Assembly (NCBI RefSeq): GCF_056746865.1
Contig: NZ_CM163382.1
Length of the DNA stretch: 64,000 nt
Reading direction: 5' to 3' (one strand)
Below are positions 39,961-51,269 of this stretch, in pieces. The notes under the pieces were generated by a model. It saw only the letters and a list, made by a program, of their open reading frames with translations. It was not told where the DNA came from and did not search any database. Every line of letters starts with the position of its first letter. Positions within the stretch are counted from its first letter, which is position 1. Both the position numbers and the translations under genes were made by a program.

Positions 39961-40323
39961 GGGGCTGATTCTGGATTCGACGGGATTTGCGAAACCCAAG
40001 GTGCATGCCGAGGGGCGGTTGGCCTCGTAAAAAGCCGCAAAAAATAGTCGCAAACGACGAAAACTACGCTTTAGCAGCTTAATAACCTGCTTAGAGCCCT
40101 CTCTCCCTAGCCTCCGCTCTTAGGACGGGGATCAAGAGAGGTCAAACCCAAAAGAGATCGCGTGGAAGCCCTGCCTGGGGTTGAAGCGTTAAAACTTAAT
40201 CAGGCTAGTTTGTTAGTGGCGTGTCCGTCCGCAGCTGGCAAGCGAATGTAAAGACTGACTAAGCATGTAGTACCGAGGACGTAGGAATTTCGGACGCGGG
40301 TTCAACTCCCGCCAGCTCCACCA
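39961..40323 (+). ncRNA. ssrA: tmRNA (transfer-messenger RNA, 10Sa RNA)
   Basis: Starts GGGGCTGATTCTGGATTCGACGGG, contains tag-coding GCAAACGACGAAAACTACGCTTTAGCAGCTTAA and ends GGTTCAACTCCCGCCAGCTCCACCA; 363 nt. Confidence 0.97.
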
Positions 40324-40489: not shown

Positions 40490-41737
40490 ATGCCTAAGCA
40501 ACTGAAACCCTTAACAAATGTGGAGATCGCTGGCGCGAAGCCCCGTAGCACGGATTATGAGCTACGGGACGGTGAAGGCCTGTACTTGCTGGTTAAGACT
40601 TCAGGGAGGAAGGCCTGGCATTTCGAGTATTATCATCCCGTCACCAAAAAGCGCACCAAAACCAGCCTTGGCCCTTACCCGGTCGTTACACTGGCCATGG
40701 CTCGCGAAACTCGCACGAAATACAGACGACTGCTCTGGCAGGGCATCGATCCCCGTCAACACTTAGCAGGAATAGCCGAAGAAAAACGCCTCCAGAATGA
40801 ATGCACGCTGGAAAAAGTTGCGGAACAGTGGCTCAAAGAGAAGAAACGGACCAGCGACCTTAGCGAAGATCACGCCAAAGATGTCTGGCGCTCGCTGGAG
40901 ATGCACGTCTTCCCTTCTCTGGGCAGTACGCCCGTCACCGAGATCCGCCCGAAGATGCTCAAGGAACACCTCACCCCGCTGGAAGAACAGGGCATCCTCG
41001 AAACGCTGCGCCGGGTTATCTCACGGCTCAATGAAATCTTCCGCTTCGCCATCTCCGAAGAGCTTATCGAGTTTAACCCAGCAGACAACCTGGTCGCCCG
41101 CTTCAAGAAACCGAAAAAGCAGAACATGCCCGCCCTTCCCCCCAGCGAACTGGGCAGACTAATGTTGGCACTACAAAACGCCTCTATCCGCAAGGAAACA
41201 CGCTGCCTTATCGAATGGGAGCTACTGACCTGGGTTCGCCCCGGCGAAGCCGTTAGCGCCCGCTGGTGCGACATCGATATGAAAAAAGCGGAATGGCGTA
41301 TCCCTGACACCTTTATGAAGATGAACCGTTCACACACGGTGCCGCTCAGCAAACAGGCGCTGCGTGTTCTTCAGATCATGGAGCCCGTCAGCCGCCATCG
41401 TCCGTGGGTCTTCCCCAGCATCCGCAAACCGCTGGAGCACATGCACCAGCAGACCGCGAACGCCGCGCTTATCCGCATGGGGTTCGGCGGTGAGCTGGTC
41501 GCCCACGGCATGCGCAGCATCGCCAGAACGGCGGGCGCAGGTCATTTTCCCCGTGAAGTTCTGGAATCTGCACTGGCACACCAGAAAGAAGACGAGATCG
41601 AAGCGGCCTACAATCGCAGCGACTATCTGGAACAAAGGCGACCGCTCATGCAGTGGTGGGGAAACTACGTTGATGCCGCCAGACGGCAGGCATTGCTCGG
41701 TGAAGAAGAACCGCTGCGGATCGTGGAAGGAGAATAA
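40490..41737 (+). CDS. P4-type tyrosine integrase
   Basis: 415-aa ORF; clear similarity to recalled CP4-57 IntA (MxxQxKPLTxxEIxxAKP...NRSDYLEQRRPMMQWW), with HGMRSIAR and YNRSDY catalytic-region motifs. Confidence 0.92.
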   Translation: MPKQLKPLTNVEIAGAKPRSTDYELRDGEGLYLLVKTSGRKAWHFEYYHPVTKKRTKTSLGPYPVVTLAMARETRTKYRRLLWQGIDPRQHLAGIAEEKRLQNECTLEKVAEQWLKEKKRTSDLSEDHAKDVWRSLEMHVFPSLGSTPVTEIRPKMLKEHLTPLEEQGILETLRRVISRLNEIFRFAISEELIEFNPADNLVARFKKPKKQNMPALPPSELGRLMLALQNASIRKETRCLIEWELLTWVRPGEAVSARWCDIDMKKAEWRIPDTFMKMNRSHTVPLSKQALRVLQIMEPVSRHRPWVFPSIRKPLEHMHQQTANAALIRMGFGGELVAHGMRSIARTAGAGHFPREVLESALAHQKEDEIEAAYNRSDYLEQRRPLMQWWGNYVDAARRQALLGEEEPLRIVEGE

Positions 41738-42732: not shown

Positions 42733-43905
42733 TTAGAGAACCTTAGACTGTTCTGGGAACCAGTTATTAATTATATGTCTTCGACAGACTTTAGATATTT
42801 CAAATACCTGTCGTGACACTAATGCACCATCAGGATGGCGCTGGTCAGGTATGTCATTTTCTATGTCATAAAAATTATGCGTTATTTCTGGGGGAAAGAA
42901 AACGTTTTTGTCTAAAGGCACGCTTGCATAGGGATTATAATACACATGCAAACCATCAAAATGAGTTTCCTTGTAGTCCCTTGTTCGGCACATTACAATA
43001 TCCGCGCCAACAACCTCATTGTTGTAGAATTGTCGCTTCGTAGTAACATAATGGTCAGGACCAAGTTTTCTCGTATGAGAACCTTCGTTCTTCATACCTT
43101 CATTGGCAATAAAAACATTCACATCAAGAGCTCGGAATCTCGTATATCGGACATATCGATCGACCCGACTCTGAACGATAGCCTTACCAAAAGTACCTGT
43201 CGTTGAAAACACGATAGCACTGATTTCTTTGTATGAGTCATTTGTAAAAATACCTAAAGGTATTTCAGTGTCTTCATTTTTTTTAATCGATAAAACCCTT
43301 CTTTGCCTACCATTTACTAAATCTCTCATCGTAGGTTCTTCAATGCCAAACAATACCCGGTTAATGATTGTATTATTCTGGGTTAAAGATAGATCTGAAT
43401 CAAATGGGGCCAATGCTAACACAAAAGGCTTACCGATTACATGTTCCATTGTTGAGTATGGGAACTTCTTACCATTAATTCCGGTAAAGAGATCGCGCTT
43501 ATCTTTAATTTTCCCAAGAAGTTTTAGCGTAGATTGATGCTTAAACTTAGCTTCACTGAAAATTTCACTGACTGGCGGTTTATGGGGCTTGTCAGAGACC
43601 ATAGCCTCTACGTTAAATTTATAACCTAATGGCGTGCTAACACAAAAATCAGGACTGTCTTTTGTATAGTCAACCGAATACCCCAAACGAATAAACATCT
43701 CATTTAGATATAATTCCCACATAGAAGAATTAAAGGTAGTCTGAAATTCGTTAATAAATTTAGTTTGTTCACCACTGCGTTCCAGTAATCCGCGTCCCCA
43801 TGATTGGATCACCGCCCTAACAGGAGCAAGTTTAGGATCTGTGTAGATTGTTTTAAAATTGTGATTTAGTTTATTTCTAGCTATTTTTGTTGAGAAGAGA
43901 TCCAT
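42733..43905 (-). CDS. hypothetical 390-aa protein, opposite strand, AT-rich
   Basis: Long uninterrupted ORF with good RBS (agaggtaaataATG); no family recognised. Confidence 0.7.
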   Translation of the reverse strand: MDLFSTKIARNKLNHNFKTIYTDPKLAPVRAVIQSWGRGLLERSGEQTKFINEFQTTFNSSMWELYLNEMFIRLGYSVDYTKDSPDFCVSTPLGYKFNVEAMVSDKPHKPPVSEIFSEAKFKHQSTLKLLGKIKDKRDLFTGINGKKFPYSTMEHVIGKPFVLALAPFDSDLSLTQNNTIINRVLFGIEEPTMRDLVNGRQRRVLSIKKNEDTEIPLGIFTNDSYKEISAIVFSTTGTFGKAIVQSRVDRYVRYTRFRALDVNVFIANEGMKNEGSHTRKLGPDHYVTTKRQFYNNEVVGADIVMCRTRDYKETHFDGLHVYYNPYASVPLDKNVFFPPEITHNFYDIENDIPDQRHPDGALVSRQVFEISKVCRRHIINNWFPEQSKVL

Positions 43906-46082: not shown

Positions 46083-48152
46083 ATGAAACGCGCCCCTTTT
46101 CTCTGTAAGCAGTCTCCGGACCGCACGCTCGAAGTGGTGATCCTTGCCGGAAGCCTGGCATGGGAGACCTCACACGTGTGGCGAAAAGATCCCGACCGGG
46201 AAGATGATGTTCCCCCGATGGTACTCGGCCCGGATGAACTGGCCGATCTGAGCAATCTGACCATTATCAGGCCCGACACGCTCTACGTCCGGGTACTTCG
46301 CACCGGCGATATCAGTGAAGAAGAGCTGCTGAAAATTGCCGTAAAACTGGCGCACGCGGGCGTGCAGATGGCCCGGCTGATGACCCCTGACGGTGAGTTA
46401 CTGGAGAACTGGACCGGACAGCTTGAACGCCTGCGACAGGAAAGACCTTCTGACATCCTGCCGGATCACTTCCGCCTCGATGAAGAAGCACTGTGGTTTG
46501 ATAAGCTCACCGAACGGCGCGACGGTGAAAGCGATGTCCAGCCCCAGCGCATCTGTTCCCCTCTGCGCGTCACTGCCATCACCTGCGACAGCCATGACGG
46601 CAGCTATGGCCGCCTGCTGGAATGGCACACCACCACCGGGCAATTGCGGCGCTGGGCCATGCCGATGGCGATGCTCAGCGGCAACGGCGAGGAGCTGAGG
46701 CGCATTCTGCTGGAGAACGGCCTGACCTATATCTCCACCCGCCCTGCCCTGCGCAGTCTGCTGTGCGAATATATCTCGCGGTCACTCCCCGGACGCCGGG
46801 TCACCTGCGCGGAGAAAACCGGCTGGCACAACGGCGTGTACGTGCTGCCGGATGAGGTTATCGGTCCCGATGGCGACAACGTCATTCTCCAGGGCAGCCA
46901 CTACCTGACTGGCGGCTTTGCACAATCCGGTACGCTGGCAGAGTGGCAGGAGCAGGTCGCCGCGCTCTGTGCAGGCAATTCACGGCTGGTCTTTGCCGTC
47001 TGCTGTGCGCTGGCCGCCCCGCTGCTGCGCCTGACAGGAACGGGCGGCGGAGGCTTTCATCTGCGCGGTGAGTCCACTGACGGTAAGACCACGGTGATGA
47101 AAGTGGCCGCTTCCGTCTGTGGCGGGACGGATTACTGGCACTCCTGGCGGGCCACCGGGAATGCGCTGGAAGGAATTGCCAGCCGCCACAACGATGCCCT
47201 GCTGCCACTTGATGAACTGCGCGAAGTGGACCCGCGTGAGGCCGGGATGATTGCCTATATGCTGGCGAACGGACAGGGCAAGGGGCGCGCCCGCACCGAT
47301 GGCGAAGTGCGTAACCGCAGGCACTGGACGCTGCTGCTGTTCTCCACCGGGGAGCTGTCGCTGGCGGAACACACCGAATGCGCCGGGGAGCGCCTCTACG
47401 CCGGGATGGACGTGCGCATGGTACAAATCCCCAGCGACACCGGGCAGCATGGTTCGTTTGAGCAGTTGCACGGGTTTGCCAGCGGCCAGCAGTTCGCCGA
47501 TACTCTCTGCGACCGGGTGGCCCGCTTCCACGGCACCGCCTTTCGTGCCTGGCTGGCCTTCCTCACCAGCGACCTGGACGCCAGCACCACGCTGGCGAGA
47601 GAGTTACTTCGCCGCTACCAGACCGCCCTGATGCCGGACAACGCCGGAAACCAGGTGCAGCGCATCGTGGCCCGTTTTGCCCTGCTGGCGGTGGCCGGGG
47701 AGATAGCGACACTGAACGGTATCACGGGCTGGCAGGAAGGCTCGGCGTATGGGGCGGTGCAGATCTGCCTTCACGCCTGGCTGAACGAGCGCGGCCATAT
47801 TGCCAACCAGGAAGATGAAGGCGTGCTGGCGCAGATCAAGCGGTTCATTACCGCGCACCAGTACAGCCGCTTTGCCTCGTGGGATGGCCCGGACCGCCCG
47901 CTGAATATGGCAGGCTTTCGCCGGGTGGAAAAAGATCCGCTGACGGGCGAGGAACACACGCTGTTCTTCATCCTGCCTGAGGGCTGGCGGGAAATATGCC
48001 GGGGATTCAGTCCTGCCAGAGCGGCCAGATTATGCCAGGAAGCGGAATGCCTGCTGCCCGGCAGCGACGGGAAATACCAGTCGCAGGTTCGCCTGCCGGA
48101 GATCGGCAAAGCCAGAGTCTACCGCCTCACCTCCCGCATCCTCAGTATCTGA
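46083..48152 (+). CDS. P4 alpha-like primase/helicase-type replication protein (P-loop NTPase C-terminal half)
   Basis: 689-aa ORF, Walker A GESTDGKTTV, position after alpA as in P4-like and PICI elements; GC-rich unlike the cargo. Confidence 0.75.
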   Translation: MKRAPFLCKQSPDRTLEVVILAGSLAWETSHVWRKDPDREDDVPPMVLGPDELADLSNLTIIRPDTLYVRVLRTGDISEEELLKIAVKLAHAGVQMARLMTPDGELLENWTGQLERLRQERPSDILPDHFRLDEEALWFDKLTERRDGESDVQPQRICSPLRVTAITCDSHDGSYGRLLEWHTTTGQLRRWAMPMAMLSGNGEELRRILLENGLTYISTRPALRSLLCEYISRSLPGRRVTCAEKTGWHNGVYVLPDEVIGPDGDNVILQGSHYLTGGFAQSGTLAEWQEQVAALCAGNSRLVFAVCCALAAPLLRLTGTGGGGFHLRGESTDGKTTVMKVAASVCGGTDYWHSWRATGNALEGIASRHNDALLPLDELREVDPREAGMIAYMLANGQGKGRARTDGEVRNRRHWTLLLFSTGELSLAEHTECAGERLYAGMDVRMVQIPSDTGQHGSFEQLHGFASGQQFADTLCDRVARFHGTAFRAWLAFLTSDLDASTTLARELLRRYQTALMPDNAGNQVQRIVARFALLAVAGEIATLNGITGWQEGSAYGAVQICLHAWLNERGHIANQEDEGVLAQIKRFITAHQYSRFASWDGPDRPLNMAGFRRVEKDPLTGEEHTLFFILPEGWREICRGFSPARAARLCQEAECLLPGSDGKYQSQVRLPEIGKARVYRLTSRILSI

Positions 48153-48171
48153 GTGCCATCTCGCGTGTCTT

Positions 48172-48382
48172 AAAAAAAGGTGGTACAGGGTGGGACAAGT
48201 GGTACACGCAGAGCTGGCGCGGGTTTCAGCGTCCCACTTTAGATAATTTGGTTTAAAAAAAGTGGTACAGAGTGGGACAGCCGTTGCTGAATCTGTCCCA
48301 CTTTTCTGACTGGTATTTTTCAGGTGGTACAGCGCAAAGCCACGGCTGGCGCGGTTGTACCACTTGTCCCACCTGTACCACC
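48172..48382. repeat. iteron-like direct and inverted repeats (putative replication origin / cis replication region)
   Basis: ggtggtacagggtgggacaagtggtacac, gtggtacagagtgggaca, ggtggtacagcgc and the inverted copy ggttgtaccacttgtcccacctgtaccacc read directly, immediately 3' of the primase gene. Confidence 0.6.
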
Positions 48383-48824
48383 TTAAAAACAGAAGAAATG
48401 AAAATGGCGAAAAGGGACTGCAAAAGCAAAGGCTGAAAGGAAGAGAGAATAAGGGGAACGGACTTACTCTTAAATGGATAACCTATATTTTTATATTCGT
48501 ACCATTTACATGATGGAGTGCAAAGTTACCATTCAACATGATTTGGATTAGATAGCAAAATTCTCTATAGAATGTTTTCTAGATTTCAGAGGGATTTAAC
48601 GATAGCTTATCTCACAAATCACAAATCGGTCAAAAAATATACAGAAAACCAAGTTTTGCCCAGAAATCCTTTTAAAATTTTTGAGTTAAAAATCATTGTG
48701 TTGTATTAATTTCAGGACGCCACATGTCAAATATCGACACCCAATATAGTGTATAAAAACACAGGAGGACTCATTGTGATTTATATAATAAAATAACCTT
48801 ATACATCTTTCTGGAAACCAAGTA

Positions 48825-49811
48825 ATGGTTAAAATTCACATTTTAGATGCCGGACATGGTGATTGCTTGTTAGTAGACTGCGATGGTGTCAAATTGTTAA
48901 TTGACGCTGGCCCAAGTACATTTAGGTATAGAAAAAAAATTTCAGCCAAGTTAGCTGAACTTCTGAATGGCGAGTCTGTTGATATCGCTTTTGTAACTCA
49001 CAATGATGATGACCATATCGGTGGTTTCAAATACCTAATTGAAAATAAAATAAACATCAAGAGATTTGTATTCAATAGTTTATCTAACATTAAACATGTA
49101 ATAAAGAATTCAAGCAATAAAATATCGACCAAACAAGATATAAATCTTGATAGAATAGTGAAAGATGGAAGTTTTGTCTTTTCGACACTAACTTCAGATG
49201 ACTCTCCTATTTTAATCAGAAATATAAAAATAACACCTATTACTCCTTCAAAAAATATCCTTTTAAAATATTTAGAACAACAAGAGCGTAAAAACACAGA
49301 AATTAAAATATCATCTTCATCTGAAAAATATAGTATTAAAGAAGCACTGCAGTTGCTAAGCAATGGAAATGATATGTTTGTAAAGGATCCATCGGCAACT
49401 AATAAAACCAGTTTATCATTTATGATTGAGTATGGGAATTTTTGTGGATTATTCCTTGGTGATGCACACGAAGAAGACATCTACTCATATATGGCTAATC
49501 ATTGTGCCAATAGAAAAATATCATTTAACGTTGTTAAGTTAGCACATCATGGTAGTGAAAAAAACACGAGTTCACGGTTATTGAAGTTAATTGGTACAAC
49601 AGAATATATCATATGTGCGAATAAAACCAAGCATAATCATCCAAATAATTTAACTCTTGCAAGAATTTTAATACATGAACAAGAACCTAAAATTCATATG
49701 AGTAGCAGCAATCAGGAGATAATAAATTTACTCAATCAAATAAATTTATTAGGCTTCGGCATTACTGCAACCCATTCTGAAAATGGAGTTAATACTTTAA
49801 TCTATGAGTAG
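48825..49811 (+). CDS. metallo-beta-lactamase-fold protein, ComEC-like (putative nuclease/hydrolase)
   Basis: 328-aa ORF: ILDAGHGDCLLVDCDGVKLLIDAG start, THNDDDHIGG metal-binding-like motif, AHHGSEKNTS motif; very AT-rich. Confidence 0.7.
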   Translation: MVKIHILDAGHGDCLLVDCDGVKLLIDAGPSTFRYRKKISAKLAELLNGESVDIAFVTHNDDDHIGGFKYLIENKINIKRFVFNSLSNIKHVIKNSSNKISTKQDINLDRIVKDGSFVFSTLTSDDSPILIRNIKITPITPSKNILLKYLEQQERKNTEIKISSSSEKYSIKEALQLLSNGNDMFVKDPSATNKTSLSFMIEYGNFCGLFLGDAHEEDIYSYMANHCANRKISFNVVKLAHHGSEKNTSSRLLKLIGTTEYIICANKTKHNHPNNLTLARILIHEQEPKIHMSSSNQEIINLLNQINLLGFGITATHSENGVNTLIYE

Positions 49812-51269
49812 AAAAAATGCTGTAAAAATAAAAGTCAATGATTCGGAATCAAGTGGCTATTTTTTCAAAGCAAGCTCCAAGGATGATTCTTTTGTAATTT
49901 CATCCAAGCACGGCCTTTGTTCTAGACAGTCAGATTGTGAAGAATTTCTTGATAATGTTCAGAATTGTTGCCGTTTATGCACTCAAGATTTAAATATTGA
50001 CAATATATCTTTTGAAATTGAAGGAAATAAGAAGCTAAAGCCAATAAGTTATTTCAGTCTTGAAAACAAAGATATTGTCATCACCAAAGTGGATGGGGTA
50101 TCTAATTATCCTTTAAGGATAGGAAAGATAGAAAAAGAAAAGTATTATACTTATGGTTACAAGAGTAAATGTGATAAGCCTGGCAGAATTTTATTAAATG
50201 AGCCAGATTTATTAGATGGGATTTGTTATTTCAATATATGTTCCGATGCAACACCTGAGTTGATTGAGAAAAGTGAAGAATATTATGGAATTTCAGGTTC
50301 ATTAGTTTTTGATTCTCCAGAAAAAGATGTTTTAACCGCACATGCAGTAATAACAACTAATGAAACCAATAATGACTTAGGTTCAGAAATATTACATGAT
50401 ATTGATTTCAAAGAAATTAATAACTTTTTCGGCTGTGAAGTATTCTTGGGTAAAAAACTCCAATTTCAACTAGATGATACTTTTAGTAAAAATTTTTCAA
50501 AGATTGGAGAAGTGCTTGTTAGCGACAAACTCCAAATTGAAATATTTATTTCATCTTATAAAGGTATACCATATTTTAATTTGACACCAATTGCTGATGC
50601 ATTAATTCAAAGTAAGTTTTATTATGTTTTTGGAAATGTTAGTAGAAGTGATCATATAAATATAATCGCTGCATCAAACATTATACTCAACAAATCTCAT
50701 TTAGAACCAGCTAATAAATTATTAACTAGCAAATTAACTGAATCGATATTATCAGCACCTCATATTTATTCCACTAGCATTGATGATAATAATTATCATC
50801 ATATTCATTTTAAACAAATGACTTCTGGTGATATTGAGCTCATAATATCATGTTATGGTGGAGGAGATGATCTTCCTAAAGATATAAATGGCACTTTAAC
50901 TGAGTTGTTACACAATATAAATACTTATAACTTAAATAAAAATTCAATAATTGAGAGGTCTTTTCTTAATCAAAAATTTACAGATGCACAATGCGAAATT
51001 TTATATGAGATTTTTTTGAGCGATTAACTGATTCAATCGACAGAATTTCATTATTGCATGTAATTCCTTTGGACCATTATTTAATAAAAGATAAATCAGA
51101 AATTAAAAATGAAATTATTACCATTGTTGAGAAAGCGTGTCAAGAATTAGACAGCAACATTTTAGATTATCTTGAGCATGGAATATCTATAAATCTATTA
51201 ATATTTCCAACTAATAATAAAGATGAATTATCAGGGTTAATGCAAAGGTTGATAAATAATTATGAATGA
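49804..51269 (+). CDS. protein with trypsin-like serine protease-type motifs; reading frame interrupted at a T7 run (ORFs 49804..51027 and 51054..51269 probably one gene)
   Basis: Start overlaps the MBL gene stop by 8 nt (ATGAGTAG); motifs SSKHGLC, NKDIVITKV, GISGSLVF; frame 1 stops at 51027 while frame 0 stays open from the T7 run (51011-51017) to 51269 and has no ATG or RBS of its own. Confidence 0.6.

What the first reader, a model, noticed from the sequence alone, without database searches (positions are those of the whole stretch)
48825..49811. Stand-alone ComEC-like MBL-fold protein with a variant metal-binding motif
The N-terminus (ILDAGHGDCLLVDCDGVKLLIDAG) and the later AHHGS motif resemble the beta-lactamase-like domain of ComEC/Rec2, but here it is a soluble stand-alone protein and the canonical HxHxDH is replaced by HNDDDH. 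In this context a nuclease role is plausible but unproven.
Basis: partly seen in the sequence, partly recalled or inferred. Interest (0 to 1): 0.5.

Follow-up and report, generated by a model that had tools for sequence, protein, structure and literature searches.

The report
Latent defence nuclease with broken activators
The gene encodes the protease-activated DNA-cutting enzyme (HamM) of a recently described "Hachiman-MBL" anti-phage system. In this E. coli copy the two partner genes that should switch it on each carry a one-base frameshift, so it is an ordinary and probably disabled member of a known family.

Summary
The ORF at 48825-49811 is real and is a ComEC-like metallo-beta-lactamase (MBL) fold protein. 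It is not a functionally stand-alone enzyme, and its motif is not a local variant. HNDDDH (HxDxDH) is invariant in 44 homologs, and solved ComEC MBL domains carry the same pattern (THPDADHIGG).

The gene is the first of a three-gene operon on an ssrA-integrated defence island:
- MBL
- a chymotrypsin-fold protease fused to a HamA-like domain
- the HamB helicase

This is the HamMAB / "Hachiman-MBL" system characterised in 2025. In that system the MBL is a gated pro-DNase, activated when the HamA-fused protease cuts two loops after conserved Ile residues. The window protein has two such ComEC-absent insertions, with invariant I100-S101 and I162(-S163).

New here: in the window, protease-hamA and hamB are each interrupted by a 1-nt deletion in a homopolymer tract (T8 to T7, A8 to A7). 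Four of 131 complete E. coli genomes that carry the module have both tracts intact. The exact frameshifted sequence is present in 122 (T7) and 126 (A7) of the 131. The locus is therefore most likely an inactivated defence system whose latent nuclease gene is still intact.

Verdict: uncharacterised E. coli member of a known kind; low interest.

The parts
48825..49811 (+). hamM: 328-aa MBL-fold gated pro-nuclease (RefSeq WP_000238828.1, named 'ComEC/Rec2 family competence protein'); intact
   Evidence: ORF. PADLOC LmuA-MBL 2.9e-61, RTasMBL 1.3e-48, Avs1a 2.4e-35. AF2 model pLDDT 84.8. Best PDB fold hit is the ComEC MBL domain 9ic4. RefSeq annotation.
48999..49016 (+). Codons for H59-N-D-D-D-H64, MBL motif 2 in its ComEC-type HxDxDH form
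   Evidence: Invariant H59 D61 D62 D63 H64 in 44 homologs. Aligned to THPDADHIGG of ComEC 9ic4/30bt.
49104..49139 (+). Gating insertion 1 (about residues 94-105) with predicted protease cut I100|S101 (codons 49122-49127)
   Evidence: I100 and S101 invariant. pLDDT <50 for residues 95-101. Query residues 73-175 are not aligned to ComEC, which has only about 52 residues between the two aligned blocks. Published cuts follow Ile in two loops (PMC12799240, PMC12642450).
49272..49334 (+). Gating insertion 2 (about residues 150-170) with predicted protease cut I162|S163 (codons 49308-49313)
   Evidence: I162 invariant and S163 >=90% conserved. Mean pLDDT about 63-64 over residues 151-170. No counterpart in the ComEC alignment.
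49542..49556 (+). Codons for A240-H-H-G-S244 (a distal metal-binding His motif shared with ComEC)
   Evidence: H241, H242 and S244 invariant. Aligned to 'VPHHGS' of ComEC 9ic4.
49804..51027 (+). protease-hamA, 5' part (407 aa): chymotrypsin-fold protease domain (triad H36/D90/S164) plus most of a degenerate HamA domain; ends prematurely after the T7 tract
   Evidence: ORF. Inserting one T restores a 488-aa protein that aligns end to end with intact orthologs. Triad residues invariant. AF2 N-terminal ~200 aa match chymotrypsin-fold proteases. Profile hits PDB 9wh1_A (HamA C-terminal domain protein) over its full length, 5.7e-17.
51011..51017 (+). T7 tract: site of a 1-nt deletion (T8 in intact alleles); reads U_UUU_UUG in the upstream frame
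   Evidence: only this indel, the A-tract indel and 3 SNPs separate the window from strain A10 over 8.6 kb. T8 exact in 4/131 complete genomes, T7 exact in 122/131.
51009..51269 (+). protease-hamA, 3' part, now in the -1 frame (listed as a 71-aa ORF 51054-51269); overlaps the hamB start by 8 nt
   Evidence: Weak HamA C-terminal hit PDLC00150, 0.0028. Aligns with the C-termini of intact orthologs.
51262..52464 (+). hamB, 5' part (400 aa): helicase core with Walker A (GPTSLGKS) and DEAH (IDEAH)
   Evidence: PADLOC HamB1 1e-89, model positions 4-400 of 845. Pfam DEAD 4.4e-14.
52448..52454 (+). A7 tract: site of a 1-nt deletion (A8 in intact alleles); reads A_AAA_AAG in the upstream frame
   Evidence: A8 exact in 4/131, A7 exact in 126/131.
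52503..53786 (+). hamB, 3' part (427 aa) in the -1 frame: Helicase_C and the C-terminal domain
   Evidence: PADLOC HamB1 2.6e-92, model positions 413-842 of 845. The intact 841-aa allele matches PDB 9wh1_B at 2e-93.

Best explanation
The ORF is hamM, the effector gene of a HamMAB ('Hachiman-MBL', trypsin-MBL) anti-phage system. The system is carried as low-GC cargo on an ssrA-integrated island.

In the intact system, as shown in published homologs and inferred here, events run as follows:
1. HamB helicase in complex with protease-HamA senses aberrant or phage DNA and hydrolyses ATP.
2. This releases the N-terminal chymotrypsin-fold protease of HamA.
3. The protease cuts HamM in two insertion loops that occlude the binuclear metal site. 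The predicted cuts here are I100|S101 and I162|S163.
4. The cut HamM becomes an indiscriminate DNase that aborts infection.

In this window hamM is intact, but protease-hamA and hamB each carry a 1-nt deletion in a lineage-specific homopolymer tract (T8 to T7 at 51011-51017; A8 to A7 at 52448-52454). The activator is therefore truncated and the sensor is split. The locus is most likely a recently inactivated defence system with a latent, uncleaved and therefore inert pro-nuclease.
For: Shown here:
- Full-length hits to defence-associated MBL models.
- MBL/ComEC fold.
- Invariant metal ligands and invariant Ile-Ser in two low-confidence, ComEC-absent insertions.
- Conserved operon of MBL + ~487-aa protein + ~840-aa HamB in Enterobacter, Aliivibrio, Salmonella and the nearest metagenomic relative, all intact.
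- The middle protein has a chymotrypsin-fold N-domain with an invariant H/D/S triad and is homologous over its full length to solved trypsin-HamA 9wh1_A.
- HamB matches 9wh1_B at 2e-93.
- 8-nt gene overlaps.

Frameshifts:
- One inserted T and one inserted A restore full-length orthologous proteins.
- Strain A10 carries exactly that, annotated as 488-aa and 841-aa genes, and differs from the window by only 3 SNPs plus the two indels in 8.6 kb.
- 4/131 complete genomes are T8+A8, against 122 exact T7 and 126 exact A7.
- In the wider collection the 407-aa form is on >=1000 contigs and the 488-aa form on 240.

From the literature:
- HamM/MBL alone is inactive, and protease, helicase and nuclease active sites are all required for defence.
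- Cuts fall after Ile (or Ser) in two loops, and the activity is specific for DNA (PMC12799240; 10.1101/2025.09.03.673762; PMC12642450).
Against: - No biochemistry was done on this E. coli protein.
- The frameshifted haplotype is widespread and hamM remains intact in it, which could hint at residual function.
- Both breaks are -1 and both lie on in-phase slippery heptamers (A_AAA_AAG, U_UUU_UUG), so some full-length protein could be made by ribosomal slippage.
- Loss of the HamA D-GExK nuclease motif was not verified here.
Confidence: 0.85

Rival explanations
1. The T7/A7 haplotype is still a working, attenuated HamMAB system. Ribosomal -1 slippage on U_UUU_UUG and A_AAA_AAG (or transcriptional slippage) yields low amounts of full-length protease-HamA and HamB, keeping a toxic abortive-infection system at a tolerable dose.
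For: Both breaks need a -1 shift and both tracts are in X_XXY_YYZ phase. A_AAA_AAG is the classic E. coli dnaX-type slippery site (established knowledge). The haplotype is the common one. Published systems are toxic on expression (PMC12799240).
Against: No stable structure lies downstream of either site (z 0.19 and -0.83). Intact alleles read straight through T8/A8. The tracts are absent from orthologs, so nothing is conserved. In-phase -1 at both sites has a naive chance of about 1/36, judged post hoc. Two sequential low-efficiency events would give very little complex. One genome has an IS1 at the 3' end of the already frameshifted hamB, and IS elements also interrupt the module in two others; some tracts are one base shorter still. 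Both fit decay.
Confidence: 0.07
2. One reading: a free-standing soluble ComEC-like nuclease that acts on its own (for example in DNA uptake, DNA degradation, or as a toxin), independent of its neighbours.
For: It is a separate polypeptide with all MBL metal ligands. Its closest solved fold is the ComEC nuclease domain. It stays intact while its neighbours are broken.
Against: It has two insertions carrying invariant protease-site residues that are absent from ComEC. It is strictly linked to a protease-fusion gene in every context examined: Hachiman type, and a 1734-aa STAND-like protein. Homologs are inactive until cleaved (PMC12799240; 10.1101/2025.09.03.673762). There is no competence membrane domain, and TIGR00361 scores 43 bits against a cut-off of 190.
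Confidence: 0.04
3. A non-nuclease MBL hydrolase: a beta-lactamase, a phosphorylcholine esterase like Pce, or an arylsulfatase.
For: Pce (2bib/1wra) is the second-best structural match. Weak hits to beta-lactamase models.
Against: All such hits are far below family cut-offs. The genomic context is a defence operon. Huang et al. tested beta-lactam, choline-ester and RNA substrates on the Klebsiella homolog and found only DNase activity (10.1101/2025.09.03.673762).
Confidence: 0.02

Closest known systems
HamM of PflHamMAB (Pseudomonas fluorescens nuclease-protease Hachiman; Tuck et al., Science 2025, PMC12799240)
   Same: Same gene order (MBL upstream, protease-HamA, HamB). MBL with two active-site-gating insertions, each carrying a conserved Ile at P1. 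Protease fused N-terminally to a HamA domain.
   Different: PflHamM is longer (42 kDa, cuts at I118 and I218, about 100 residues apart). Here the protein is 36.8 kDa with predicted cuts 62 residues apart. Sequence identity was not measured. In this window the partner genes are frameshifted.
Klebsiella pneumoniae Hachiman-MBL / trypsin-HamAB (Huang et al., bioRxiv 10.1101/2025.09.03.673762; PDB 9wh1/9whk/9whu are probably this complex, by molecule names only)
   Same: The intact E. coli HamB matches 9wh1_B at 2e-93, and the protease-HamA profile matches 9wh1_A over its full length at 5.7e-17. The spacing between cut sites is short-form-like (62 vs 63 residues), with Lys at P2 in both loops.
   Different: P1 is Ser in the Klebsiella KSS motifs and Ile here (K-I-S). 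The paper reports that swapping MBLs between the KSS group and the long-form IS(G)N group abolishes toxicity. Here the Klebsiella-like short spacing is combined with Ile at P1, so cross-compatibility is untested.
Avs-associated MBL (Avs1a; VcMBL with VcAvs2; PMC12642450, PMC12799240)
   Same: Same MBL clade. Acinetobacter homologs at 47-49% identity sit next to a 1734-aa STAND-like protein. Cuts are Ile|Ser.
   Different: The sensor is a STAND NTPase that recognises phage terminase or portal, not a helicase. The NCBIfam Avs1a score here is 145 bits against a cut-off of 420.
ComEC/Rec2 C-terminal MBL nuclease domain (PDB 9ic4, 30bt)
   Same: Best structural match. Shared HxDxDH-IGG and HHGS motifs.
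   Different: ComEC is a polytopic membrane DNA-uptake protein. Its MBL domain lacks the two gating insertions. This protein has no membrane domain.
Canonical Hachiman HamAB (PMC12278908; PDB 8vx9)
   Same: HamB-family Ski2-like helicase sensor; HamA-like partner domain.
   Different: In canonical systems HamA itself is the nuclease. Here the HamA domain is only weakly recognisable (E about 1e-3), carries a protease, and the nuclease is a separate MBL protein.

Membership tests
HamM / protease-gated MBL pro-nuclease of HamMAB (Hachiman-MBL) | MBL fold with ComEC-type metal ligands | tested here: met
   AF2 pLDDT 84.8. Top PDB match is the ComEC MBL domain, E 3.5e-15. H59, D61, D63, H64, D213, H241, H242 and H272 invariant.
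HamM / protease-gated MBL pro-nuclease of HamMAB (Hachiman-MBL) | [quoted passage not shown] | tested here: met
   8-nt overlap with the next gene. Chymotrypsin fold and invariant H36/D90/S164. Full-length match to 9wh1_A 'HamA C-terminal domain' protein. The gene is frameshift-truncated in the window and intact in strain A10.
HamM / protease-gated MBL pro-nuclease of HamMAB (Hachiman-MBL) | HamB helicase encoded downstream in the same operon | tested here: met
   PADLOC HamB1 1e-89 and 2.6e-92 for the two halves. Intact allele vs 9wh1_B, 2e-93. Split by a frameshift in the window.
HamM / protease-gated MBL pro-nuclease of HamMAB (Hachiman-MBL) | Two insertions relative to ComEC, each with a conserved small or Ile P1 cleavage residue | tested here: met
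   About 50 extra residues between the ComEC-aligned blocks. I100-S101 and I162 invariant. These are the lowest-pLDDT segments. Occlusion of the active site was not examined.
HamM / protease-gated MBL pro-nuclease of HamMAB (Hachiman-MBL) | HamA domain has lost the D-GExK nuclease motif | not tested
   Only weak HamA hits. No alignment to canonical HamA could be made, and the A2 profile found no canonical HamA in the PDB at E<=1.
HamM / protease-gated MBL pro-nuclease of HamMAB (Hachiman-MBL) | Proteolytic activation to a DNA-specific nuclease; phage defence | not testable with these tools
   Needs biochemistry and plaque assays. Known only for homologs (PMC12799240; 10.1101/2025.09.03.673762).
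ComEC/Rec2 competence protein (the RefSeq name) | Polytopic membrane competence domain with the MBL domain at its C-terminus; reaches the TIGR00361 cut-off | tested here: not met
   328 aa with no hydrophobic segment. TIGR00361 43 bits vs cut-off 190, and PRK11539 22 bits vs 969.
Avs1a (AVAST type 1 MBL) | Reaches the NF041809 cut-off and is adjacent to a protease-STAND NTPase | tested here: not met
   144.7 bits vs cut-off 420. The neighbours are HamA-like and HamB, not STAND.
Lamassu MBL-type effector (PADLOC 'LmuA' PDLC03854, the best model hit) | Adjacent LmuB / SMC-like LmuC genes | tested here: not met
   The best PADLOC hit is 2.9e-61, but no SMC or LmuB gene is in the operon. The downstream genes are HamA-like and HamB.

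The most novel reading that the evidence does not exclude
The predominant double-frameshift (T7/A7) haplotype is not dead. It is a dose-attenuated or switchable form of a toxic abortive-infection system. Low-frequency -1 slippage at U_UUU_UUG and A_AAA_AAG, or tract-length reversion to T8/A8, would supply just enough protease-HamA and HamB to arm the intact HamM pro-nuclease.
Probability: 0.07. Interest if true: 0.55.

Novelty: new member of a known kind. Interest (0 to 1): 0.25.

Why it matters
- **Annotation.** RefSeq names this protein 'ComEC/Rec2 family competence protein', which is misleading. It should be read as the HamM-type gated pro-nuclease of a Hachiman-MBL system.
- **Population view.** Most E. 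coli carriers hold a copy in which both the sensor and the activator are frameshifted at homopolymer tracts, while a minority (4 of 131 complete genomes; 240 contigs in the wider collection) keep intact alleles. Presence/absence calls of this defence system from domain hits will therefore overestimate functional immunity.
- **Experimental handle.** The near-isogenic intact and broken alleles differ by 3 SNPs and 2 indels in 8.6 kb. They form a natural pair for testing the cost and benefit of this toxic system.

Tried and rejected
- **Programmed frameshifting.** RNA folds downstream of both slippery heptamers are no better than shuffles. Orthologs lack the tracts.
- **Promoter/terminator scan of 48.1-54.5 kb.** It found fewer promoter-like sites than shuffles and no useful terminator, so it was uninformative.
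- **Family searches on the middle protein alone.** Pfam and NCBIfam found nothing. Only a profile against the PDB and a structure prediction identified it.
- **Literature search for the RefSeq accession WP_000238828.** No paper was found, so whether this exact E. coli protein is in the published phylogenies is unknown.
- **HamA domain in the fold search.** The Foldseek output for the protease-HamA model was saturated by coronavirus 3CL proteases, so the HamA domain was not evaluated structurally.
- **Strain SCU-313.** It looked like an intermediate allele, but its assembly has 15 gap openings in 8.6 kb, so it was set aside as unreliable.
- **Lamassu and Avs1 membership.** Both were considered because of the model hits, and rejected on context and cut-offs.

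Full report
**1. The observation**

The ORF at 48825-49811 (+) is real and encodes 328 aa. It contains the quoted N-terminus, HNDDDH at residues 59-64 and AHHGS at 240-244. It matches the MBL superfamily: Pfam Lactamase_B 1.8e-8, N-terminal part only. It also resembles the ComEC MBL domain, with TIGR00361 at 1.7e-11 but only 43 bits against a cut-off of 190. RefSeq calls it 'ComEC/Rec2 family competence protein', WP_000238828.1. It has no hydrophobic segment.

An AlphaFold2 model built on 44 homologs is confident (pLDDT 84.8, pTM 0.87). Its best solved-structure match is the beta-lactamase-like domain of ComEC from Moorella glycerini (9ic4, E 3.5e-15), followed by the phosphorylcholine esterase Pce.

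**2. The 'variant' motif is the family norm**

In an alignment of 44 homologs at 44-53% identity, H59, D61, D62, D63 and H64 are invariant. So are D213, H241, H242 and H272. The solved ComEC MBL domains read THPDADHIGG where this protein reads THNDDDHIGG, and VPHHGS where it reads LAHHGS. HxDxDH therefore departs from the generic MBL HxHxDH consensus, but it is what ComEC-type MBL nucleases normally have.

**3. Context**

The gene opens a 5-kb block of 26-33% GC, set in flanks of 51-66% GC. The block lies on an island integrated next to ssrA. The island carries:
- tmRNA at 39961-40323
- integrase at 40490-41737
- AlpA
- a DUF927 primase-like gene at 46083-48152

Downstream of the MBL gene, overlapping it by 8 nt, the ORFs are:
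- a 407-aa ORF with no family hit
- a 71-aa ORF with a weak HamA C-terminal hit
- two ORFs that are the N-half and C-half of a HamB helicase (PADLOC HamB1 1e-89 for model positions 4-400 and 2.6e-92 for 413-842)

The MBL itself hits defence-associated MBL models over its full length: PADLOC 'LmuA' 2.9e-61, RT-associated MBL 1.3e-48 and Avs1a 2.4e-35.

**4. Relatives**

Outside E. coli the nearest homolog is 52-53% identical. Hundreds more at 44-49% occur in Enterobacterales, Vibrio, Aeromonas and Acinetobacter.

In Enterobacter, Aliivibrio, Salmonella and the nearest metagenomic relative, the neighbourhood is always MBL (327-328 aa) + a 479-489-aa protein + an 835-847-aa HamB. Each is a single open frame with overlapping gene ends. 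In Acinetobacter the MBL instead sits upstream of a 1734-aa STAND-like protein, which is an Avs-type context.

**5. The middle protein**

- Its N-terminal ~200 residues fold as a chymotrypsin-type protease (AF2 pLDDT 81; Foldseek hits to 3CL proteases, Umb1 and factor XII).
- H36, D90 and S164 are invariant.
- Trypsin_2 is weakly hit in 6 of 23 family members, and HamA in 2.
- A profile of the family matches the solved chain 9wh1_A ('HamA C-terminal domain-containing protein', 528 aa) over its whole length (E 5.7e-17).
- The intact E. coli HamB matches the partner chain 9wh1_B at 2e-93.

**6. Identification**

This architecture is the HamMAB / 'Hachiman-MBL' / trypsin-MBL system described in 2025. 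Three papers report the following.
- Tuck et al. [quoted passage not shown] It is cut by the HamA-fused protease after I118 and I218, within two insertions that block the active site. The product is a DNA-specific nuclease. Nuclease, protease and helicase active sites are all needed for defence.
- Huang et al. (10.1101/2025.09.03.673762) showed the same for a Klebsiella system. The cuts there are in two KSS motifs, and ATP-bound HamB restrains the protease.
- A third study mapped Ile|Ser cuts in an Avs-linked MBL (PMC12642450).

The window protein fits this description. About 50 residues between the ComEC-aligned blocks have no ComEC counterpart. They contain invariant I100-S101 and I162(-S163), each preceded by Lys here. 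They are also the least confident parts of the model: residues 95-101 have pLDDT below 50, and residues 151-170 average about 63. I therefore predict cuts at I100|S101 and I162|S163, giving fragments of 100, 62 and 166 residues. This is an inference from homology, and no biochemistry exists for this protein.

**7. What is new in this window: both partner genes are broken**

Both breaks shift the downstream frame by -1, and both lie in homopolymer tracts.
- The 407-aa ORF ends just after a T7 tract (51011-51017).
- The HamB N-half ends just after an A7 tract (52448-52454).

Inserting one T and one A restores a 488-aa protease-HamA and an 841-aa HamB that align end to end with the orthologs.

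Such alleles exist. E. coli strain A10 has T8 and A8, annotated as single 488-aa (WP_000087768.1) and 841-aa (WP_240751370.1) genes. It differs from the window by only 3 SNPs plus these two indels over 8.6 kb.

Among 5,426 complete E. coli genomes, 133 match the module and 131 of these match it over at least 80% of its length; the 97-98-nt tract-site queries likewise hit 131 genomes.

| Allele | Complete genomes (of 131) |
|---|---|
| T8 and A8, the same four strains | 4 |
| Exact T7 sequence | 122 |
| Exact A7 sequence | 126 |
| One base fewer still in the 97-nt T-tract window | at least 2 |

One genome also has an IS1 at the 3' end of the already frameshifted hamB. In the wider protein collection the 407-aa form is on at least 1000 contigs and the 488-aa form on 240. 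A 217-aa MBL form appears on 149 contigs. The T8 and A8 tracts are specific to the E. coli lineage, and orthologs have other codons at those positions.

**8. Interpretation of the breaks**

The simplest reading is two slippage deletions that inactivated a costly abortive-infection system. The first hit would make the second neutral, and the double-mutant island then spread. Published data say HamM alone is inert, and that the protease without a functional HamA domain does not activate it. The intact hamM in this window is therefore probably latent.

Both breaks happen to be in-phase -1 slippery heptamers (U_UUU_UUG and A_AAA_AAG), so a little full-length protein by ribosomal slippage cannot be excluded. 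There is no downstream stimulatory structure (z 0.19 and -0.83) and no conservation of the sites. I give this reading about 7%.

**9. Verdict**

The sequence observation is correct. The 'variant motif' is not a variant. The nuclease guess is right in kind. The protein, however, is the protease-gated effector of a known three-gene defence system rather than a stand-alone enzyme, and in this copy its activators are frameshifted. It is an uncharacterised E. coli member of a family whose mechanism was published in 2025. Interest is low; the allele pair is a modest practical bonus.

Noticed in passing
window 42733-43905 (-): A low-GC 389-aa gene on the same ssrA island is a strong match to the single-gene defence system PD-T7-5 (PADLOC PDLC04110, 2.6e-136). 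Pfam finds nothing, and RefSeq calls it hypothetical.
   Followed up: partly
window 57968-59170 (+): A low-GC DUF3883 gene beyond the sorbitol-PTS-like genes matches the defence system PD-T4-1 (PDLC04021, 1.3e-204). The region from ssrA to about 59 kb therefore holds at least three defence modules.
   Followed up: partly
window 53941-54420 (-): A CI-repressor-like HTH gene lies convergent to hamB (Pfam HTH_3 2.8e-7, Phage_CI_repr 5.2e-5; weak PADLOC capH 4e-5). In Aliivibrio (L004 13031-13612) a Phage_CI_repr gene sits in the same position after hamB. The module may occupy a conserved cargo slot next to a repressor in related mobile elements.
   Followed up: no
window 51011-51017 and E. coli genomes EC1 (NZ_CP058574.1) and PKF4 (NZ_CP156662.1): Besides T8 (intact) and T7 (window), at least two complete genomes have one base fewer again in this 97-nt stretch. 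This could be real tract instability or a homopolymer assembly error.
   Followed up: partly
protein cluster of the window MBL (P0173): A 217-aa form of the MBL protein is recorded on 149 E. coli contigs, including complete chromosomes. This suggests that hamM itself is truncated or re-called in some strains.
   Followed up: no
L007/L008 9007-14211 (Acinetobacter): MBL homologs at 47-49% identity sit upstream of a 1734-aa protein that has only weak AAA/STAND hits and no PADLOC hit, followed by a second protein of >1296 aa. This is an Avs-like context that PADLOC 2.0 models do not recognise.
   Followed up: no
window 48153-48824: A 672-nt non-coding gap lies between the DUF927 gene and hamM. 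GC content falls from 51% (48000-48499) to 33% (48500-48999) across it, and no convincing promoter was found by the consensus scan.
   Followed up: partly
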